Below are positions 56,836 through 63,990 of a stretch of 64,000 nucleotides of DNA, piece after piece. Position numbers and translations under genes: made by a program. Source of the DNA: Escherichia phage HildyBeyeler; sequence record MZ501074. The stretch is one strand, 5' to 3'. Numbering within the stretch: position 1 is the first letter of the stretch; each line of letters starts with the position of its first letter. The notes below the pieces were generated by a model. The model was not told the DNA's origin. It searched no databases and was given only the letters and a program-made list of their open reading frames with translations.

Positions 56836-58506
56836 ATGGTTATTTCCGCAGAAAAACAAACCCAGATCCTCAACCTTGCCGCTGATTTCAATTTCTATGG
56901 TAAACGTCTGCGCGCTACTAAGCTGGAAGTTTGTGACGATATTTCAAAAGCTGTTTATGATACGCCGAAACATTCCACCGCTATTTGTGACTGGTTGGAA
57001 GCAAATAAACCAGCGAAACCGAAAGCGGCGAAAGTAGCAAAAGCCATAAAAAACGATGACCGCCCTGAAGCCGCTGGAGTTATTTCTAGCACGGTGGAGC
57101 AATGGGAAGTAAAACAAGGCAAACGCTTTATCATTACATCGATTCAGAATAATACTTTCCCGCATAAAAACTTTTTGGCCGCGCTTGAACAATATGCCCA
57201 ATTTATTGGAGCTGATTTGCTGGTTAGCAAGTATATTTATAATAAAAACGGTTTTCAAAATGGGGAAGGGGCAGACGGAATCAAATATGATTCTGCATTT
57301 GACAAATATATTTGCAGCAAAAACGTGTTTTTAAATAACCGCCGCTTTGCTTTCATGGCTGAAATTAATGTTTTGCCAACCGCAGATTATCCGCTATCTG
57401 GATTTGCTGAAACTGCAACCGCGCTTAATCTGGAAGGTCTGGCAATTGGTCACGCTAAAATCACCGCCGAAAGCGTGCCAGCTTTAAAAGGTGAAGTAGT
57501 GCGCCGCATGTATTCAACCGGAACGGCAACGCTAAAAAATTACATTCAGCAGAAGGCAGGGCAAAAAGCGGAAGCGTTACATAATTTTGGTGCGCTGATT
57601 GTCGAGTTCGACGAGGACGGAGAATTTTTTGTTCGCCAGCTTGAAACGATGGACGAAAGCGGCGTTTTTTACGATTTGAATATTTGCGCCACTCCCACCG
57701 GATGCTATGAAACAACGGGGCACGTTTTAGGTTTACAGTATGGTGACATCCACGCTGAAAAATTAGATGAAGAGTGCGCCGCTGCATCATGGGGGCATGG
57801 TGATACCTATGGGCTTGTGGATATTCTCAAACCAAAATATCAATTCGTCCATGACGTGCATGATTTTACATCACGCAACCATCACAACCGCGCCTCCGGT
57901 GTATTCCTAGCAAAACAGTACGCCGCCGGACGTGATAAGGTTCTGGATGATCTTATCGATACGGGGCGCGTACTGGAAGCAATGGAGCGTGATTTCTCTC
58001 AAACAATCATTGTTGAATCGAATCACGATCTGGCGTTATCCCGCTGGCTTGATGATCGTAATGCTAACATTAAAGACGACCCAGCAAACGCGGAACTATA
58101 TCACCGCCTGAATGCCGCGATTTACGGAGCTATCGCAGAAAAAGACGAAACCTTCAACGTGCTTGATTATGCGTTGCGCAAGGTTGCAGGTTGCGAGTTT
58201 AACGCCATTTTCCTAACGACTGACCAATCTTTCAAGATTGCAGGCATTGAATGCGGCGTACACGGTCACAATGGCATTAACGGGAGTCGTGGCAATCCTA
58301 AACAGTTTAAGAAATTGGGCAAATTAAACACGGGGCATACTCATACGGCAAGCATTTACGGCGGTGTATATACCGCTGGCGTTGCTGGTAGTCTGGACAT
58401 GGGTTACAACGTTGGCGCGTCAAGCTGGACGCAAACGCATATTATTACCTATGTAAACGGTCAGCGCACTTTGATTGACTTTAAGAATGGTAAATTTTTC
58501 GCATAA
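56836..58506 (+). CDS. A1: A1-like pre-early protein, metallophosphoesterase-type nuclease
   Basis: 556 aa; GDIH, ESNHD and GVHGHNG phosphoesterase motifs; size and context recalled to match T5 A1. Confidence 0.5.
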   Translation: MVISAEKQTQILNLAADFNFYGKRLRATKLEVCDDISKAVYDTPKHSTAICDWLEANKPAKPKAAKVAKAIKNDDRPEAAGVISSTVEQWEVKQGKRFIITSIQNNTFPHKNFLAALEQYAQFIGADLLVSKYIYNKNGFQNGEGADGIKYDSAFDKYICSKNVFLNNRRFAFMAEINVLPTADYPLSGFAETATALNLEGLAIGHAKITAESVPALKGEVVRRMYSTGTATLKNYIQQKAGQKAEALHNFGALIVEFDEDGEFFVRQLETMDESGVFYDLNICATPTGCYETTGHVLGLQYGDIHAEKLDEECAAASWGHGDTYGLVDILKPKYQFVHDVHDFTSRNHHNRASGVFLAKQYAAGRDKVLDDLIDTGRVLEAMERDFSQTIIVESNHDLALSRWLDDRNANIKDDPANAELYHRLNAAIYGAIAEKDETFNVLDYALRKVAGCEFNAIFLTTDQSFKIAGIECGVHGHNGINGSRGNPKQFKKLGKLNTGHTHTASIYGGVYTAGVAGSLDMGYNVGASSWTQTHIITYVNGQRTLIDFKNGKFFA

Positions 58507-58561
58507 TTAAATTATTCCCTAGCGGCTTGAAATATAGCCGCTATTACAGGAGCCACAAAAA

Positions 58562-58852
58562 ATGAAAATTAATTTACCTAGCAATGAATTTTCCCCTAAA
58601 ACTTCTTTACTAGATGATATTTCTTATCAAGATGCTTATATAAATGAGGAAGTATATCGCGCTTGTTCTGACCTCCTAGAATATCCCGATTATCCAATCT
58701 ATAAAGGTGATTTCATTATACCCGTTTATAATGGTGTGCTAGTAGTAGGCAAAGCTGGGGTTATTGTTATAGATAGTTGTACATTGTCACAAGAAACGTT
58801 TAAAGTGCCACTAGAGTTAACTAATTATTCTCCTAGTATTACAGTACAATAA
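58562..58852 (+). CDS. hypothetical protein
   Basis: ORF track. Confidence 0.4.
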   Translation: MKINLPSNEFSPKTSLLDDISYQDAYINEEVYRACSDLLEYPDYPIYKGDFIIPVYNGVLVVGKAGVIVIDSCTLSQETFKVPLELTNYSPSITVQ

Positions 58853-58889
58853 ATTAAGTCCCTTATTAAACTAATTGGAGTTTATAAAT

Positions 58890-59282
58890 ATGAAAAAGCA
58901 AAATATCCCATTCGATCGCGCTCAGTCTTCTATCGTTCTGGTTTATTCTAATGGTGCGCGGTATCACGTCGAGGCCGGTCACGTTGTCGATGACTTAATC
59001 GAGTTTAATGACGTTTTGCAGGTTACTACTTTCGCCTATACCACGGGCAAGCTATCCAGCCGCATCAAGGCGAAAGGCGTTCACATTGACACGATGAAAC
59101 AAGAAACCATCATTATTGACGCGGTAAAATCCGGCCTAGCCTTTGCAGTTGTCGCGCCTTGCCCCGCTTGCCTTGATGATCAGCTAATGAGCGCAAAAGT
59201 ATTTACTTGTGCGGGGATTCGTTCCGATGTATCAGGTGAAGATATTAGTTTTATCGCTGATGCGCTGGCTTATGGTCTTTGA
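58890..59282 (+). CDS. A2-like pre-early protein (about 15 kDa)
   Basis: ATG 58890 after GGAG; position between A1-like and dmp-like genes. Confidence 0.35.
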   Translation: MKKQNIPFDRAQSSIVLVYSNGARYHVEAGHVVDDLIEFNDVLQVTTFAYTTGKLSSRIKAKGVHIDTMKQETIIIDAVKSGLAFAVVAPCPACLDDQLMSAKVFTCAGIRSDVSGEDISFIADALAYGL

Positions 59283-59320
59283 TAGTTGATTTATTATTGC
59301 CCGCTGATAAATAGCGGGCA

Positions 59321-60097
59321 ATGCTGGATAAACTAAATCCCTTTAATGGAGAACGTAACAAAATGAATCAAGTTAAAACGAATATTACCCGTAATTTCCC
59401 GCATGTTTCCCGCGTCATGATCTGGGATCTGGATGGCACTATCGTTAACTCATTCCATCGCGTAGCGCCTTGCTTTGATAGTGATGGTAATCTAGATCTG
59501 AATAAGTATAAAAATGAAGCGTGCAAACATGATTTAATAATGCAAGATACTTTATTGCCGCTTGTTACATATATGCGCCAATGCATGAATGACGCAAATA
59601 CTTTAAACATTATTTGTACCGCTCGACTGATGAGCAAGTCGGACTATTATTATTTGCGCAAACAAGGCTTGCGAGGGCGTGGGAATAGCAATATCCGTGT
59701 ATTTTCCCGCGATACACTGCATAAGTATTTTGAAGCTGATAAAGTTAGCGAAATATACCACAGTAAGGACGCAGTTTATAAAAGCCACTACTTTGAGTTA
59801 TTTAAGCAGTTATATCCGAACGCTGATTTCACGATGATAGACGATCATAAAGGTGTGCTAGCAGCGGCGGCATCATACGGATTTAAAACGTTGGACGCGC
59901 AAGCCGTTAACGATATTCTATCAATCGGTGTTACATTGATAGGCGAAACCTTTATCGACGAATCTCTTGAGGATGATAATGATTATCAGTTCCTAGTCGA
60001 TCGCTTGCAATTATGTTGGGAAAGTATGACCGAGGAAGAACGCGCAGAATATAGTTGCAGCCCGCAACAATATATCGAGAAACTAAAAGTTGCATAG
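59321..60097 (+). CDS. dmp: HAD-superfamily 5-prime deoxyribonucleotidase-like protein
   Basis: MIWDLDGTIVNS HAD motif I; 258 aa; pre-early context. Confidence 0.55.
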   Translation: MLDKLNPFNGERNKMNQVKTNITRNFPHVSRVMIWDLDGTIVNSFHRVAPCFDSDGNLDLNKYKNEACKHDLIMQDTLLPLVTYMRQCMNDANTLNIICTARLMSKSDYYYLRKQGLRGRGNSNIRVFSRDTLHKYFEADKVSEIYHSKDAVYKSHYFELFKQLYPNADFTMIDDHKGVLAAAASYGFKTLDAQAVNDILSIGVTLIGETFIDESLEDDNDYQFLVDRLQLCWESMTEEERAEYSCSPQQYIEKLKVA

Positions 60098-60140: not shown

Positions 60141-60272
60141 CAAGGTGAAACAGTTAGCATGATAATAGTAACGGGGGTGGCGGTTAGCAGACTAAGTATT
60201 TTCGCCCAGCCCACTGCACCCACCCACGCGTACGTAATCCAAAGAATTTGGCAAAAGTCATTTTAGCGCTAA

Positions 60273-60812
60273 TTACCTGTTTAATTGGGCAACGTCTGGT
60301 ATACTTCCTTTGAACATCTCCTGTATTGCAAAGTCACCATGAAATGTCCTTCTTAGTAAATTTGCATAATTTACGGCATCTTCTAATTCGCTATAGGGAA
60401 AGTACTTAGTAGTGCCCCTTATCAGCCCCTGTTTATCGTGTAATCTTACCATCCACTTCTGAAGTTCTTTATGCCATGTAACATTTAGATAGCCTGATGA
60501 TGCTCTTGAGATTCTGCCATTATGATTATTCTCTGTAATTGAAGCCTCTCTTAAATTTGACCATCTATTATTTAGTTTATTCCTATCTATGTGGTCTACA
60601 CATTCCTCTGGCCATCTATTCTCCATAATAACAAAAGCTACTTGATGTGCATAAGCTTTAAACCCTCGATACTTGAGCTGCCTATATCCCCTATTTAAAG
60701 TACCTGCTTCTTTACCCTTACGATTGCCGCTTTTCCAGGTAAAAACTCCAGTTTCGGGGTCATAAGCAAATACTTCTTGTATTTCCTGTATATTTAGATT
60801 ATTCTTCACCAT
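60273..60812 (-). CDS. HNH homing endonuclease
   Basis: HQVAFVIMENRWPEECVDHIDRN...NRWSNLREAS HNH signature. Confidence 0.65.
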   Translation of the reverse strand: MVKNNLNIQEIQEVFAYDPETGVFTWKSGNRKGKEAGTLNRGYRQLKYRGFKAYAHQVAFVIMENRWPEECVDHIDRNKLNNRWSNLREASITENNHNGRISRASSGYLNVTWHKELQKWMVRLHDKQGLIRGTTKYFPYSELEDAVNYANLLRRTFHGDFAIQEMFKGSIPDVAQLNR

Positions 60813-60854
60813 GAACCTCCATGTGTAATCTTATGAAATTTGGCAAAAGTCAAA

Positions 60855-61100
60855 TTAGTGCATAGAAGGGTCATCAAACCTGTGTTCTGGTCTAAACTCA
60901 CGGAATCTCTTCCGCGACGCCCGAGAACCATCATTCCACTCCCGTTCAAACTCCGCACGTTTCTCATCGAACTTCCGCTCCCTTTCCGCAATCTCCCGCG
61001 ATACTTCCGCAATATATTTACGATGCCTGTCGATAGCCGCAGTCATCCCGAAAACTCCCGCAAGTACCCCGATAATAAAAGCAATTATAATACTAAACAT
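60855..61100 (-). CDS. mini membrane protein (array member a)
   Basis: ORF track; N-terminal TM IIIAFIIGVLAGVFG then charged tail. Confidence 0.45.
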   Translation of the reverse strand: MFSIIIAFIIGVLAGVFGMTAAIDRHRKYIAEVSREIAERERKFDEKRAEFEREWNDGSRASRKRFREFRPEHRFDDPSMH

Positions 61101-61287
61101 CTAATTCCCTCTCAATTTGCAGAATACGGGTGCTACCACAACGTTGCAGTAGTACTAGCTTTTCTAGAGCAACTTGTTGTTGTTTTACTTGAGCTTCTAG
61201 AGTTTTTAGGCGAACATACGCGTTATAAGAAACAATGAAAGTTGCCCAGACTAGTATTACTATTAGTGTAGCTACTATTTCCATCAT
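61093..61287 (-). CDS. mini membrane protein (array member b)
   Basis: ORF track; TM helix then coiled coil. Confidence 0.45.
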   Translation of the reverse strand: MMEIVATLIVILVWATFIVSYNAYVRLKTLEAQVKQQQVALEKLVLLQRCGSTRILQIERELDV

Positions 61288-61391
61288 TTACGCTTCTCCG
61301 TTAATAAGGTTTCAATTCTAGCTAAGTGATTATCTAAAATACATTGCCCGATAATCACAATCCCTAGTAGTGCAATAATTACCCATTCCAT
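61284..61391 (-). CDS. mini membrane protein (array member c, 35 aa)
   Basis: Hand translation MEWVIIALLGIVIIG...RIETLLTEKRK; ATGA/TAATG coupling; not in ORF track. Confidence 0.4.
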   Translation of the reverse strand: MEWVIIALLGIVIIGQCILDNHLARIETLLTEKRK

Positions 61392-61546
61392 TATTTACGC
61401 TCCTCTAATAAAGTTTCAATTCTAGATAATCTATTGCTCAACTGCATTAATTTAACCTCTACTTGGGTTACAGAGGTATCTATTACACGTAAGCCTACAA
61501 AGAGAAGTATTAGTAAGACGAATATGCCAATAATTACCCATTCCAT
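61391..61546 (-). CDS. mini membrane protein (array member d, paralog of c)
   Basis: Start MEWVIIGIFVLL at internal ATG of track ORF; C-terminus RIETLLEERK. Confidence 0.45.
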   Translation of the reverse strand: MEWVIIGIFVLLILLFVGLRVIDTSVTQVEVKLMQLSNRLSRIETLLEERK

Positions 61547-61683
61547 TAAATCCACCCCGCCATAGCTGCTAACCAAAAACCTACGAAAATAAAGAATAGA
61601 ATAGTTCCGAATCCAAAGCTATTAATCCAGCTATCGTACACTTCCCCACGTCTACTTTTTCTTCTGTTTGACATATCTTTCAT
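61546..61683 (-). CDS. mini membrane protein (array member e, C-terminal TM)
   Basis: Hand translation MKDMSNRRKSRRGEV...TILFFIFVGFWLAAMAGWI; TAATG coupling to d; not in ORF track. Confidence 0.4.
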   Translation of the reverse strand: MKDMSNRRKSRRGEVYDSWINSFGFGTILFFIFVGFWLAAMAGWI

Positions 61684-61850
61684 GCTCCTATAAGTGCGGT
61701 ATTTGAAATATTCTATAACTTGTGCACAACCAACCGTGCCTATGAACTCCTAGAAGGACTTCTACTTTTCCTACCTAGTGGTTTCTGCCAGTACACCATC
61801 CGAGAAATAAAAAATTTAGTTTACTTGGATGTCTTTTTGCTTTATACTAA

Positions 61851-62117
61851 TTACAGGTAGTTAGATTGCTCTAGTTTAAATTTACAATCACCGTATTTAA
61901 GATCAAACTGACTGAGATCCCACCACCCAAACTTAGTACGGAGCTGTACTACTGGAAAGCGATCTCCCTTAATACGAACTTTTTGAACCTTGAGGCCGTA
62001 ATGCTCCTCCCCAGCACCGCCAAAAGATTTTACAAATCCCGTACAAAATGGTTTGGGAGCAGGTGCACAACCAGATAACATAGCTGCGGCAACTAGTGCA
62101 ATTACAAACTTTTTCAT
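61851..62117 (-). CDS. llp: Llp-like lipoprotein (candidate receptor-blocking superinfection exclusion protein)
   Basis: Signal peptide with lipobox LSGC; divergent from receptor-binding-protein gene as in T5. Confidence 0.5.
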   Translation of the reverse strand: MKKFVIALVAAAMLSGCAPAPKPFCTGFVKSFGGAGEEHYGLKVQKVRIKGDRFPVVQLRTKFGWWDLSQFDLKYGDCKFKLEQSNYL

Positions 62118-62202
62118 ATTTATCTCTCCATTTCTAATTTATGAATCTATTATAGCAAAATAGAGGGATGAAAGCAAATACATTTTTATAATAGGAGATT
62201 AT

Positions 62203-63990
62203 ATGGGTTTTTTCGCTGGAAAATATAGTGATGGTAAAACTGTATTATCACTAAACAAGGTGAATGGGGGGGATATTAATGCTCACAAAACTCCTAACGC
62301 CAATACTATATTTCATTCTGACATGCCATTTGTTCTAGTTGAGAGTACGTATGAGAGTGCGTTAAGTAGTGCTGGTAATGGGTTCTTTGTATGTCAAATG
62401 CCTTCTGATATAGCTAATTTAAAGAGCAACGACCCTGGTAGAGTTATACTAACCGCTGTTGAGATAAACGGTACACATAGAGCTTTTCTTAATGGTACTC
62501 AATCCCAGGTTGGGCAGTTCTCAGCATTTTTCGAGGATTTTGCTAGTGGTAGGGCTGGTGCTGAATTATCTGTAACATCTGCTTTTGCGATCGGTGATAG
62601 TTTAGCACACGGTACTTATACTTATAACTCTGGTTTAGGCCATGAGGAATCTATTGCTCGACAAGGTTCTGGGGGCAGTTTACTACAGGCCTCTGGGTTC
62701 CTGATCTATAGACCTGGTGGTGTTTCTGCTGGTGAAGCCATTTCCAGAGCCTGGAATCTTATGGGTTTTCCAGCGGGTGTCTCTACTGTTCCTTTAGATA
62801 GTAATCACGCAGATTATTGGGAGCCTAACTGGCAGGCACCTATTGGGTCTGCTGGTAGAGGTCACAATTGGTTTTATGTTTGTAACTCCAATATTCGTGG
62901 CTTTGCAGGTAAGAAAGGTGTATTACCAAATAACGTAAACGTTATTTATAAATCCCCCGCATACCCAGAAAAAATCTATGTTTGTAGAGGTTCTACCTCT
63001 AACTTAGCGAATCAAAGTGCTAAAAAAATGATTGTACAAGATAATTTTAATGTAACTCCAACTAAGGTTATTTGGTACGTATTGAATCTTAAGTACTCTA
63101 ATGGGGGTATGAGTGTTGCTAGTAATCCCTTTACTGGATCCGATATTCATATAAGTCCATCTAACTTTACTATAAAAGGTGTTAGTCTTCCAAACACTAG
63201 CTACAAATTCATTAATCAGAATGCTTTTGGTAATTTAGCGTCTAGACCTGATATGGAGTATGTTGGTAATAACGCTGCGTATACCGGAGTTTTTGGTGAT
63301 AATACTGCAAGATGTGAAATTGTAGGTTCTAATAAAGGCTCTTTATGGTCTCCAGTAGATTATGGTGGTTCTAAGTCTCAGATAAGTATTTACAAATTCT
63401 CTGCTGGTAAGCAATGGTATGTTAATTCCAACAATAATACTATAGGTAATGAGCATGGAGTTGTTTGGGGACCCTCTTCAGTACCTTTACGATTACTACC
63501 AAATAACGTAGCCAGTACTTATATAGGTGATGACATAAACCCTTCTTACCCGGGTACAGGTAACAAGTATGTAGCCTTATCCACAGTAAGTCTTGGACTA
63601 CCAAATGCAAACTCTACAGTAATCCTAACTACTGAAGTAGTTGCTGGAAATCTTAATACTGCTGGAATGCCTGTGCGTACTTACAGTGGTAGCGCTTGGC
63701 AGGTACAAGGTAGACGTAAACAAAGTTACACAGCTGGTGATGGCATATTCCATCAAATATTAACTTTACCACCCAACCATCTAGTACCATTCCATACTAC
63801 AGCTTCCTATAGCTATGCACAAACTCAGGCTAGTAGGCCTGATGATTTAACATTTACTAGAAATGGGTTTATTTATACTATTAAAAATTTGGGTAACGGT
63901 AACGTTGAGTTGGGTGTAGTTATACATGCTGCGGAAGCGGCAGCTGTTTTCTTACCAAGACTACGTGTAACAGTTCAACGCCTTACCTAA
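62203..63990 (+). CDS. receptor-binding tail protein candidate (pb5/Oad-like)
   Basis: 595 aa Gly/Asn/Ser-rich protein adjacent and divergent to llp-like gene; AGGAG RBS; no sequence motif recognised. Confidence 0.4.
   Translation: MGFFAGKYSDGKTVLSLNKVNGGDINAHKTPNANTIFHSDMPFVLVESTYESALSSAGNGFFVCQMPSDIANLKSNDPGRVILTAVEINGTHRAFLNGTQSQVGQFSAFFEDFASGRAGAELSVTSAFAIGDSLAHGTYTYNSGLGHEESIARQGSGGSLLQASGFLIYRPGGVSAGEAISRAWNLMGFPAGVSTVPLDSNHADYWEPNWQAPIGSAGRGHNWFYVCNSNIRGFAGKKGVLPNNVNVIYKSPAYPEKIYVCRGSTSNLANQSAKKMIVQDNFNVTPTKVIWYVLNLKYSNGGMSVASNPFTGSDIHISPSNFTIKGVSLPNTSYKFINQNAFGNLASRPDMEYVGNNAAYTGVFGDNTARCEIVGSNKGSLWSPVDYGGSKSQISIYKFSAGKQWYVNSNNNTIGNEHGVVWGPSSVPLRLLPNNVASTYIGDDINPSYPGTGNKYVALSTVSLGLPNANSTVILTTEVVAGNLNTAGMPVRTYSGSAWQVQGRRKQSYTAGDGIFHQILTLPPNHLVPFHTTASYSYAQTQASRPDDLTFTRNGFIYTIKNLGNGNVELGVVIHAAEAAAVFLPRLRVTVQRLT

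What the first reader, a model, noticed from the sequence alone, without database searches (positions are those of the whole stretch)
61851..63990. Divergent lipoprotein / receptor-binding-protein pair
An 88-aa lipoprotein precursor (lipobox LSGC) is transcribed away from a 595-aa Gly/Asn/Ser-rich tail protein. The arrangement matches what I recall of the T5 llp-oad locus, where the lipoprotein masks the receptor used by the RBP. The RBP is shorter than T5 pb5 (recalled as about 640 aa), which would be consistent with a different receptor.
Basis: partly seen in the sequence, partly recalled or inferred. Interest (0 to 1): 0.45.

Follow-up and report, generated by a model that had tools for sequence, protein, structure and literature searches.

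The report
BF23-type BtuB receptor-binding/receptor-blocking gene pair
This is the already-annotated host-recognition module of the T5-like coliphage HildyBeyeler: a tail-tip protein that docks on the vitamin-B12 transporter BtuB, next to a small lipoprotein that shuts that receptor down in infected cells. It is real but ordinary.

Summary
Both ORFs exist exactly as described: an 88-aa lipoprotein precursor (61851-62117, minus strand, lipobox LSGC) and a 595-aa protein (62203-63990, plus strand), divergent across 85 bp. This is the T5-like receptor-binding protein (RBP) plus receptor-blocking lipoprotein (Llp) module, but in its BF23 version (hrs/llp), not the T5 version.

- **RBP:** 86% identical to BF23 Hrs with no gaps and the same length, and 29% identical to T5 pb5.
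- **Llp:** the mature protein is 72/72 identical to BF23 Llp.
- **Source:** the exact proteins are deposited as Escherichia phage HildyBeyeler (Bas33, MZ501074), as "receptor-binding tail tip protein" and "superinfection exclusion protein".

Verdict: already known, low interest.

The parts
61851..62117 (-). llp: 88-aa precursor of the BF23-type receptor-blocking (superinfection-exclusion) lipoprotein. The stop codon is 61851-61853.
   Evidence: ORF. It is 87/88 identical to BF23 Llp. The exact sequence is QXV80180.1, 'superinfection exclusion protein', of phage HildyBeyeler. PHROG 1119 at 1.5e-25.
62070..62117 (-). Signal peptide (codons 1-16, MKKFVIALVAAAMLSG). The lipobox LSGC spans 62067-62078 and Cys17 is the lipidated first residue of the 72-aa mature protein.
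   Evidence: Pfam LPAM_1 at 6e-05 and sequence features. The only difference from BF23 Llp (A12 versus V12) lies in this segment.
62118..62202 (.). 85-bp divergent control region. On the minus strand, the llp -10 TATAAT is at 62149-62154 and the -35 TTGCTT is at 62172-62177. The llp Shine-Dalgarno (GGAGAG on the minus strand) is at 62124-62129. The RBP Shine-Dalgarno AGGAG is at 62193-62197.
   Evidence: 82/85 identical to BF23 with no indels. The promoter hexamers were mapped from the -10 and -35 features annotated in BF23 record DQ097178 and read in the sequence. The generic promoter scan did not call this site, and its hits were not above chance, so the promoter rests on the BF23 annotation.
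62203..63990 (+). hrs/oad-type gene for the 595-aa receptor-binding tail-tip protein, BtuB-specific cluster.
   Evidence: 86.1% identical to BF23 Hrs without gaps. PHROG 4815 at 2e-268. PDB pb5 at E 3e-46. The exact sequence is QXV80181.1 of HildyBeyeler. Terminal receptor BtuB in S5 Table of PMC8594841.
62503..63252 (+). Central module of the RBP gene (codons 101-350). It is a recombination tract and the most variable part of the family. It aligns to the receptor-inserting loops L1 and L2 of T5 pb5.
   Evidence: This tract is 94-99% nt identical to Logan contig SRR16555208_216924 (L004), but codons 101-300 are only 67-77% identical to BF23. The pattern reverses in codons 351-500. 58 of the 83 amino-acid differences from BF23 fall in residues 101-300. 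The family variability peaks and the mapping to pb5 Q115 and F170 come and PMC9586334.

Best explanation
The locus is the host-recognition and lytic-conversion module of a T5-like phage, Escherichia phage HildyBeyeler (Tequintavirus), in its BF23 (BtuB) version. The 595-aa protein is the late-expressed receptor-binding protein. It sits at the tip of the straight central tail fibre, binds the outer-membrane vitamin-B12 transporter BtuB irreversibly, and so triggers DNA ejection. Its central third and a short C-terminal stretch probably form the loops that insert into the BtuB lumen. The divergent 88-aa gene encodes a lipoprotein that is exported, lipidated at Cys17 and sorted to the outer membrane. 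There it binds BtuB and makes it unavailable to the RBP. This protects the infected cell from superinfection and keeps progeny from being wasted on debris. By analogy with T5 Llp-FhuA, the block is probably allosteric, acting from the periplasmic face of the receptor. Shown here: the identity and homology of both genes, the lipoprotein features and the mosaic gene structure. Shown by others for identical or near-identical proteins: BtuB dependence, and Llp-mediated exclusion of BF23-type phages but not of T5. Inferred: the periplasmic allosteric mechanism on BtuB, which RBP loops make contact, and the expression timing.
Against: Nothing contradicts the assignment. Several points remain weak. 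The central RBP module differs by 22-38% from BF23, so receptor use is not proven by BF23 alone and rests on the BASEL table and on cluster membership. Homology between this Llp and T5 Llp is not detectable by sequence beyond the signal peptide, and Foldseek found no PDB match, so transferring the periplasmic allosteric mechanism to BtuB is an analogy. The generic promoter scan found nothing above chance.
Confidence: 0.93

Rival explanations
1. The swapped central module has retargeted the RBP to an outer-membrane protein other than BtuB (FhuA, FepA or something new), so that RBP and Llp are mismatched.
For: Residues 101-300 are only 62-78% identical to BF23 Hrs. This region aligns to the receptor-inserting loops of pb5. 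Recombination between hrs and llp is documented and visible here.
Against: The phage with the identical RBP is listed with BtuB as terminal receptor. The central module is 84-86% identical to that of P0015 (Salmonella phage bux), which belongs to the high-identity group that also holds BtuB-proven TrudiRoth at 82% overall. Identity to FhuA- and FepA-type RBPs is about 31% or less. DT57C has an equally divergent Hrs and still uses BtuB.
Confidence: 0.04
2. The 88-aa lipoprotein is a generic moron or membrane lipoprotein with a role other than receptor blocking, and its position next to the RBP gene is incidental.
For: No curated Pfam family matches beyond the lipid-attachment motif. There is no sequence match to any solved structure.
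Against: The mature protein is identical to BF23 Llp. Receptor-blocking activity is reported for BF23 Llp and for the DT57C Llp, which differs from it by one residue (PMC4728585). The divergent pairing with the RBP gene is present in every related locus examined here (BF23, T5 and L004). 25 positions of the protein are invariant across 12 sequences that go down to 57% identity.
Confidence: 0.02
3. It is a T5-type, FhuA-directed oad/llp module, reading the first reader's analogy literally.
For: The divergent layout is the same as in T5, and the RBP is a remote homologue of pb5.
Against: The RBP is only 29% identical to pb5, and the Llp only 28% identical over 67 aa to T5 Llp. The profile comparison aligns only the signal-peptide region. 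A BF23-type Llp does not protect against T5.
Confidence: 0.01

Closest known systems
Phage BF23 hrs-llp module (DQ097178, OR083247; Mondigler et al. 2006, cited via PMC4728585 and PMC10644984)
   Same: Same gene order, orientation and lengths (595 aa and 88 aa, with an 85-bp spacer that is 82/85 identical). The mature Llp is identical. The RBP is 86% identical without gaps. The receptor is BtuB.
   Different: The central RBP module (residues 101-300) is only 62-78% identical and derives from another lineage. There is one substitution in the Llp signal peptide. Downstream of llp, the neighbourhood carries an extra small membrane ORF and an HNH endonuclease insertion.
Phage T5 oad (pb5)-llp module (NC_005859; structures 8a8c, 8b14, 8a60, 7qjf)
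   Different: The receptor is FhuA, not BtuB. pb5 is 640 aa and 29% identical. No Llp sequence homology is detectable beyond the signal peptide and first Cys. There is no cross-protection.
Phages DT57C and DT571/2 (Golomidova et al. 2016, PMC4728585)
   Same: The same published pattern: an Llp nearly identical to BF23 Llp (one substitution), a mosaic and divergent Hrs, BtuB still the receptor, and a recombination point placed within the module.
   Different: The RBP allele is different. There, the divergent patches were described in the first 200 N-terminal residues. Here, the exchanged tract is codons 101-350.
Cor lipoproteins of T1, phi80 and N15 (PHROG 1119 'Cor superinfection exclusion protein')
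   Same: Small outer-membrane lipoproteins encoded next to the RBP that exclude phages using the same TonB-dependent transporter. Many database records label this Llp 'Cor'.
   Different: Cor proteins act on FhuA, and their relationship to this protein was not tested directly here. The PHROG match (1.5e-25) most likely reflects BF23-type members within that PHROG.

Membership tests
T5-like (Markadamsvirinae) receptor-binding protein family (pb5/Hrs; PHROG 4815; Pfam PF26860 Phage_T5_RBP5) | Full-length sequence homology to pb5/Hrs | tested here: met
   PHROG 4815 at 2e-268 over residues 1-595. pb5 chains 8b14_B and 8a8c_B at E 3e-46. All homologues carry the precomputed PF26860. The local Pfam copy gave no hit.
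T5-like (Markadamsvirinae) receptor-binding protein family (pb5/Hrs; PHROG 4815; Pfam PF26860 Phage_T5_RBP5) | Gene lies directly upstream of the terminase small subunit and divergent from llp, next to the terminal repeat | tested here: inconclusive
   The divergent llp and the upstream A1/dmp pre-early genes are present. The window ends 10 nt after the RBP stop, so the terminase gene cannot be seen. In BF23 and L004, which share this arrangement, it follows 10 nt later.
T5-like (Markadamsvirinae) receptor-binding protein family (pb5/Hrs; PHROG 4815; Pfam PF26860 Phage_T5_RBP5) | Located at the tip of the central tail fibre and triggers DNA ejection on receptor binding | not testable with these tools
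   Known for T5 pb5 (PMC9586334). BF23 Hrs can replace pb5 functionally (PMC10644984).
BtuB-specific cluster of Markadamsvirinae RBPs (BF23 Hrs type) | Clusters with RBPs of phages shown to need BtuB, and apart from the FhuA and FepA clusters | tested here: met
   86% to BF23, 82% to TrudiRoth and 59% to phiR2-01, against 29% to T5 and 31% to S124. No phage homologue in the sampled ranking falls between 34.5% and 66.9%. The three-cluster rule is from PMC8594841.
BtuB-specific cluster of Markadamsvirinae RBPs (BF23 Hrs type) | Infection depends on btuB | not testable with these tools
   S5 Table of PMC8594841 lists terminal receptor BtuB for HildyBeyeler, whose RBP is 100% identical.
BF23-type receptor-blocking lipoprotein Llp | Lipoprotein signal peptide with a lipobox and no Asp at +2 | tested here: met
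   MKK, hydrophobic core, L-S-G-C17, then Ala18. LPAM_1 at 6e-05.
BF23-type receptor-blocking lipoprotein Llp | Mature sequence matches BF23 Llp, including two conserved non-lipid cysteines | tested here: met
   72/72 identical in the mature part. C25 and C78 are invariant in 12 sequences.
BF23-type receptor-blocking lipoprotein Llp | Expression blocks BtuB-dependent phages | not testable with these tools
   Reported for BF23 Llp and for the DT57C Llp, which differs by one residue (PMC4728585).
T5 Llp / Cor family (FhuA-blocking lipoproteins) | Sequence homology across the mature protein | tested here: not met
   hhalign aligns only residues 1-29, the signal peptide to the first Cys. phmmer against the PDB does not retrieve 8a60_B or 7qjf_A. 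Pairwise BLAST gives 28% over 67 aa at E 4e-4.
T5 Llp / Cor family (FhuA-blocking lipoproteins) | Same fold as solved T5 Llp | tested here: inconclusive
T5 Llp / Cor family (FhuA-blocking lipoproteins) | Blocks FhuA | not testable with these tools
   Published data argue against it: a BF23-type Llp did not affect T5.

The most novel reading that the evidence does not exclude
BF23-type and T5-type Llp, which the literature describes as non-homologous, may be divergent members of one small disulfide-stapled beta-barrel lipoprotein fold. In that case the BtuB blocker would work like T5 Llp on FhuA, from the periplasmic face by allosteric loop closure. Meanwhile the RBP would keep pace with BtuB surface variation by exchanging a roughly 750-nt cassette (codons 101-350) that encodes the lumen-inserting loops. 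That would explain why Llp stays invariant while the RBP centre is shuffled between Tequintavirus-like and Epseptimavirus-like lineages.
Probability: 0.4. Interest if true: 0.3.

Novelty: already known. Interest (0 to 1): 0.08.

Why it matters
It matters mainly as a check on the scan. Biologically the module is textbook material for T5-like phages, and this exact allele is already deposited with its receptor assigned. The residual value is practical. The cleanly bounded central cassette and the invariant Llp make this locus a convenient natural template for engineering BtuB-directed RBP chimeras, and for testing whether lipoprotein-mediated allosteric receptor shutdown extends from FhuA to BtuB.

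Tried and rejected
- **Single-sequence AlphaFold model of Llp:** pLDDT 48, so it was discarded and replaced by a 12-sequence alignment model with pLDDT 83.
- **Foldseek against BFVD:** it recovered only the family itself (phiR2-01 Llp, 1e-8) and one weak 'super-infection exclusion protein' hit at 9.5e-3.
- **Pfam scan of the RBP:** no hit in the local copy, although homologues carry the precomputed PF26860.
- **phmmer of Llp against the PDB:** only chance-level hits such as ovomucoid and TrwH.
- **hhalign of the Llp profile against T5 Llp:** only the signal-peptide region aligned.
- **Generic promoter and terminator scan:** the counts were at or below shuffled expectation, and the scan missed the llp promoter annotated in BF23. 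No promoter claim rests on it.
- **Exact-protein contig look-up for the RBP:** nothing on record, so the window's identity with HildyBeyeler rests on four exact protein matches with accessions from one record, QXV80170 to QXV80181, not on a DNA alignment.
- **BF23 as a recent recombination donor of the C-terminal half:** considered and dropped. Synonymous differences from BF23 are roughly even along the gene. The recombination evidence comes from the L004 comparison instead.

Full report
**Observation.** One is an 88-aa ORF on the minus strand (61851-62117). The other is a 595-aa ORF on the plus strand (62203-63990). They point away from each other across 85 bp. The small protein has the standard lipoprotein precursor layout: MKK, a hydrophobic core, the lipobox L-S-G-C17, and Ala at +2. 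It matches Pfam LPAM_1 at 6e-05. The large protein is 29.7% Gly+Asn+Ser.

**What it is.** The region matches 438 phage records, almost all of them T5-like Salmonella or Escherichia phages. In these records the two genes are annotated as receptor-binding protein and as receptor-blocking or Cor superinfection-exclusion protein.
- The best-studied match is BF23. Its hrs and llp genes have the same lengths, 595 and 88 aa, and the same 85-bp spacer.
- The window's RBP is 86.1% identical to BF23 Hrs with no gaps. It is 28.8% identical to T5 pb5 (E 4e-53).
- It matches PHROG 4815, 'receptor binding tail protein', at 2e-268, and the solved pb5 chains 8b14_B and 8a8c_B at 3e-46.
- The Llp differs from BF23 Llp at one residue (A12 versus V12), which lies inside the signal peptide. 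The mature 72-aa lipoprotein is therefore identical.
- The spacer is 82/85 identical to BF23. It carries the llp -10 (TATAAT, 62149-62154, minus strand) and -35 (TTGCTT, 62172-62177) that are annotated in BF23 record DQ097178.

**Source of the window.** A search of the large protein collection found a 100% identical RBP named 'receptor-binding tail tip protein [Escherichia phage HildyBeyeler]'. Exact-sequence look-ups then showed that four proteins in the window are all HildyBeyeler proteins from one 111,607-bp record:
- Llp is QXV80180.1, 'superinfection exclusion protein'.
- RBP is QXV80181.1.
- The neighbouring HNH endonuclease is QXV80174.1.
- A1 is QXV80170.1.

HildyBeyeler is Bas33 of the BASEL collection (MZ501074, Tequintavirus). 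S5 Table of that paper lists its primary receptor as LPS/O-antigen and its terminal receptor as BtuB, under the heading of host receptors on E. coli K-12 (PMC8594841). The paper's methods describe testing the phages on receptor-knockout strains in qualitative top agar assays.

**Receptor assignment.** The BASEL paper shows that Markadamsvirinae RBPs fall into three clusters (BtuB, FepA, FhuA) and that cluster position predicts the receptor. In my tblastn survey, the homologues split in two with nothing in between in the sampled ranking. One group is at 66.9% identity or more. The other is at 34.5% or less.
- The high-identity group contains BF23 and TrudiRoth. TrudiRoth is 82% identical, and its btuB dependence was complemented.
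- The RBP of phiR2-01 is 59% identical. That phage is BtuB-dependent according to the title of PMC8624392.
- T5 (FhuA) is at 29% and S124 (probably FepA) is at 31%.

**Mechanism.** For T5, structures show two things (PMC9586334). First, pb5 inserts four loops into the FhuA lumen. These are L1 with tip Gln115, L2 with tip Phe170, L3, and L4 at residues 570-590. [quoted passage not shown]

For the BF23 type, published genetics show the following (PMC4728585; see also PMC10644984). The llp of DT57C has one substitution relative to BF23 llp. Expressing it lowers plating of BF23-type phages more than 100-fold and does not affect T5. Resistant mutants map to btuB.

I therefore take the function of both genes as established by identity to characterised proteins. 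The periplasmic allosteric mode on BtuB is an inference by analogy. I found no BtuB-Hrs or BtuB-Llp structure in the PDB copy or in the paper library.

**Is this Llp related to T5 Llp?** By sequence, barely.
- BLAST gives 28% identity over 67 aa at E 4e-4.
- A profile of 12 BF23-type Llps aligns to T5 Llp only from the signal peptide to the first Cys.
- phmmer does not retrieve the T5 Llp PDB chains.

The cysteine pattern is nonetheless the same: the lipid Cys, a second Cys 8-10 residues later, and a third near the C-terminus. The positions are 17/25/78 here and 16/26/73 in T5.

**A modest addition: the RBP gene is mosaic.** 58 of the 83 differences from BF23 Hrs lie in residues 101-300. Across 23 BtuB-type RBPs, variability peaks at residues 101-125, 151-275, 476-500 and 526-550. 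In alignments to pb5, these stretches correspond to L1 (Gln115 maps to about residue 113-114), L2 (Phe170 maps to about 169-173) and L4 (570-590 maps to about 532-549). At 29% identity this mapping is approximate.

The DNA comparison with a Logan contig, SRR16555208_216924 (locus L004), shows a clear exchange.

| Codons | nt identity to L004 | nt identity to BF23 |
|---|---|---|
| 51-100 | 81% | 88% |
| 101-300 | 94-99% | 67-77% |
| 301-350 | 97% | 92% |
| 351-500 | 71-79% | 86-93% |

This marks an intragenic recombination tract of roughly 750 nt, codons 101-350.

Meanwhile the Llp stays essentially constant, and RBP and Llp similarity are uncoupled among relatives. Sds2 has an RBP 82% identical to the window's but an Llp only 67% identical. 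GEC_vB_N7 has a 67.5% RBP with a 97.7% Llp. This is the phenomenon described for DT57C (a mosaic Hrs, a BF23-like Llp, and a recombination point inside the module), so it extends known biology rather than adding a new kind.

**Verdict.** The locus is already deposited and annotated, and its receptor is assigned. Novelty is 'already known' and interest is low.

Noticed in passing
window 60273-60812 (-), flanks 60245-60269 and 60837-60861: A 179-aa HNH homing endonuclease (PF13392 at 7e-12; PHROG 99 at 9e-52; exact match to QXV80174.1 of HildyBeyeler) sits between the dmp gene and the small membrane-protein ORFs. BF23 has no gene at this position. The ORF is bracketed by a 25-nt imperfect direct repeat (88% identical, 592 nt apart), which suggests a discrete inserted cassette near the position where BF23's terminal repeat ends.
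   Followed up: partly
window 61284-61391 (-) and 61391-61576 (-): Two tandem paralogous small single-pass membrane ORFs, MEWVIIALLG...IETLLTEKRK and MEWVIIGIFV...IETLLEERK, together with direct repeats (21 nt identical at 61373 and 61528; 30 nt at 87% at 61296 and 61400). BF23 lacks a 155-bp segment here and has a single copy. This looks like a local duplication in the cluster of tiny ORFs downstream of llp, whose function is unknown.
   Followed up: partly
window 62503-63252 (+); locus L004 4301-5050: There is an intragenic recombination tract in the RBP gene. Codons 101-350 are 94-99% nt identical to Logan contig SRR16555208_216924, while the flanking codons are 71-81% identical. BF23 shows the opposite pattern.
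   Followed up: yes
related phage records: Llp alleles fall into two main groups in the phage collection: 174 records at 95-99% identity and 213 at 60-80%. They are not linked to RBP similarity. Sds2 has an RBP at 82% with an Llp at 67%. GEC_vB_N7 has an RBP at 67.5% with an Llp at 97.7%. This implies repeated recombination between the two genes.
   Followed up: partly
window 56836-60097 (+): The pre-early genes A1 (556 aa, exact match to QXV80170.1) and dmp, which lie in the terminal repeat of T5-like phages, sit directly upstream of the llp/RBP module, with about 57 kb of further sequence before them in the window.
   Followed up: no
window 61820-61848 (+): A sigma-70-like site (TTTACT, 17-nt spacer, TATACT) just past the 3' end of llp points into llp in antisense and on towards the RBP gene. 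The scan as a whole was below chance expectation (5 found against 7.8 expected), so this is probably meaningless.
   Followed up: no
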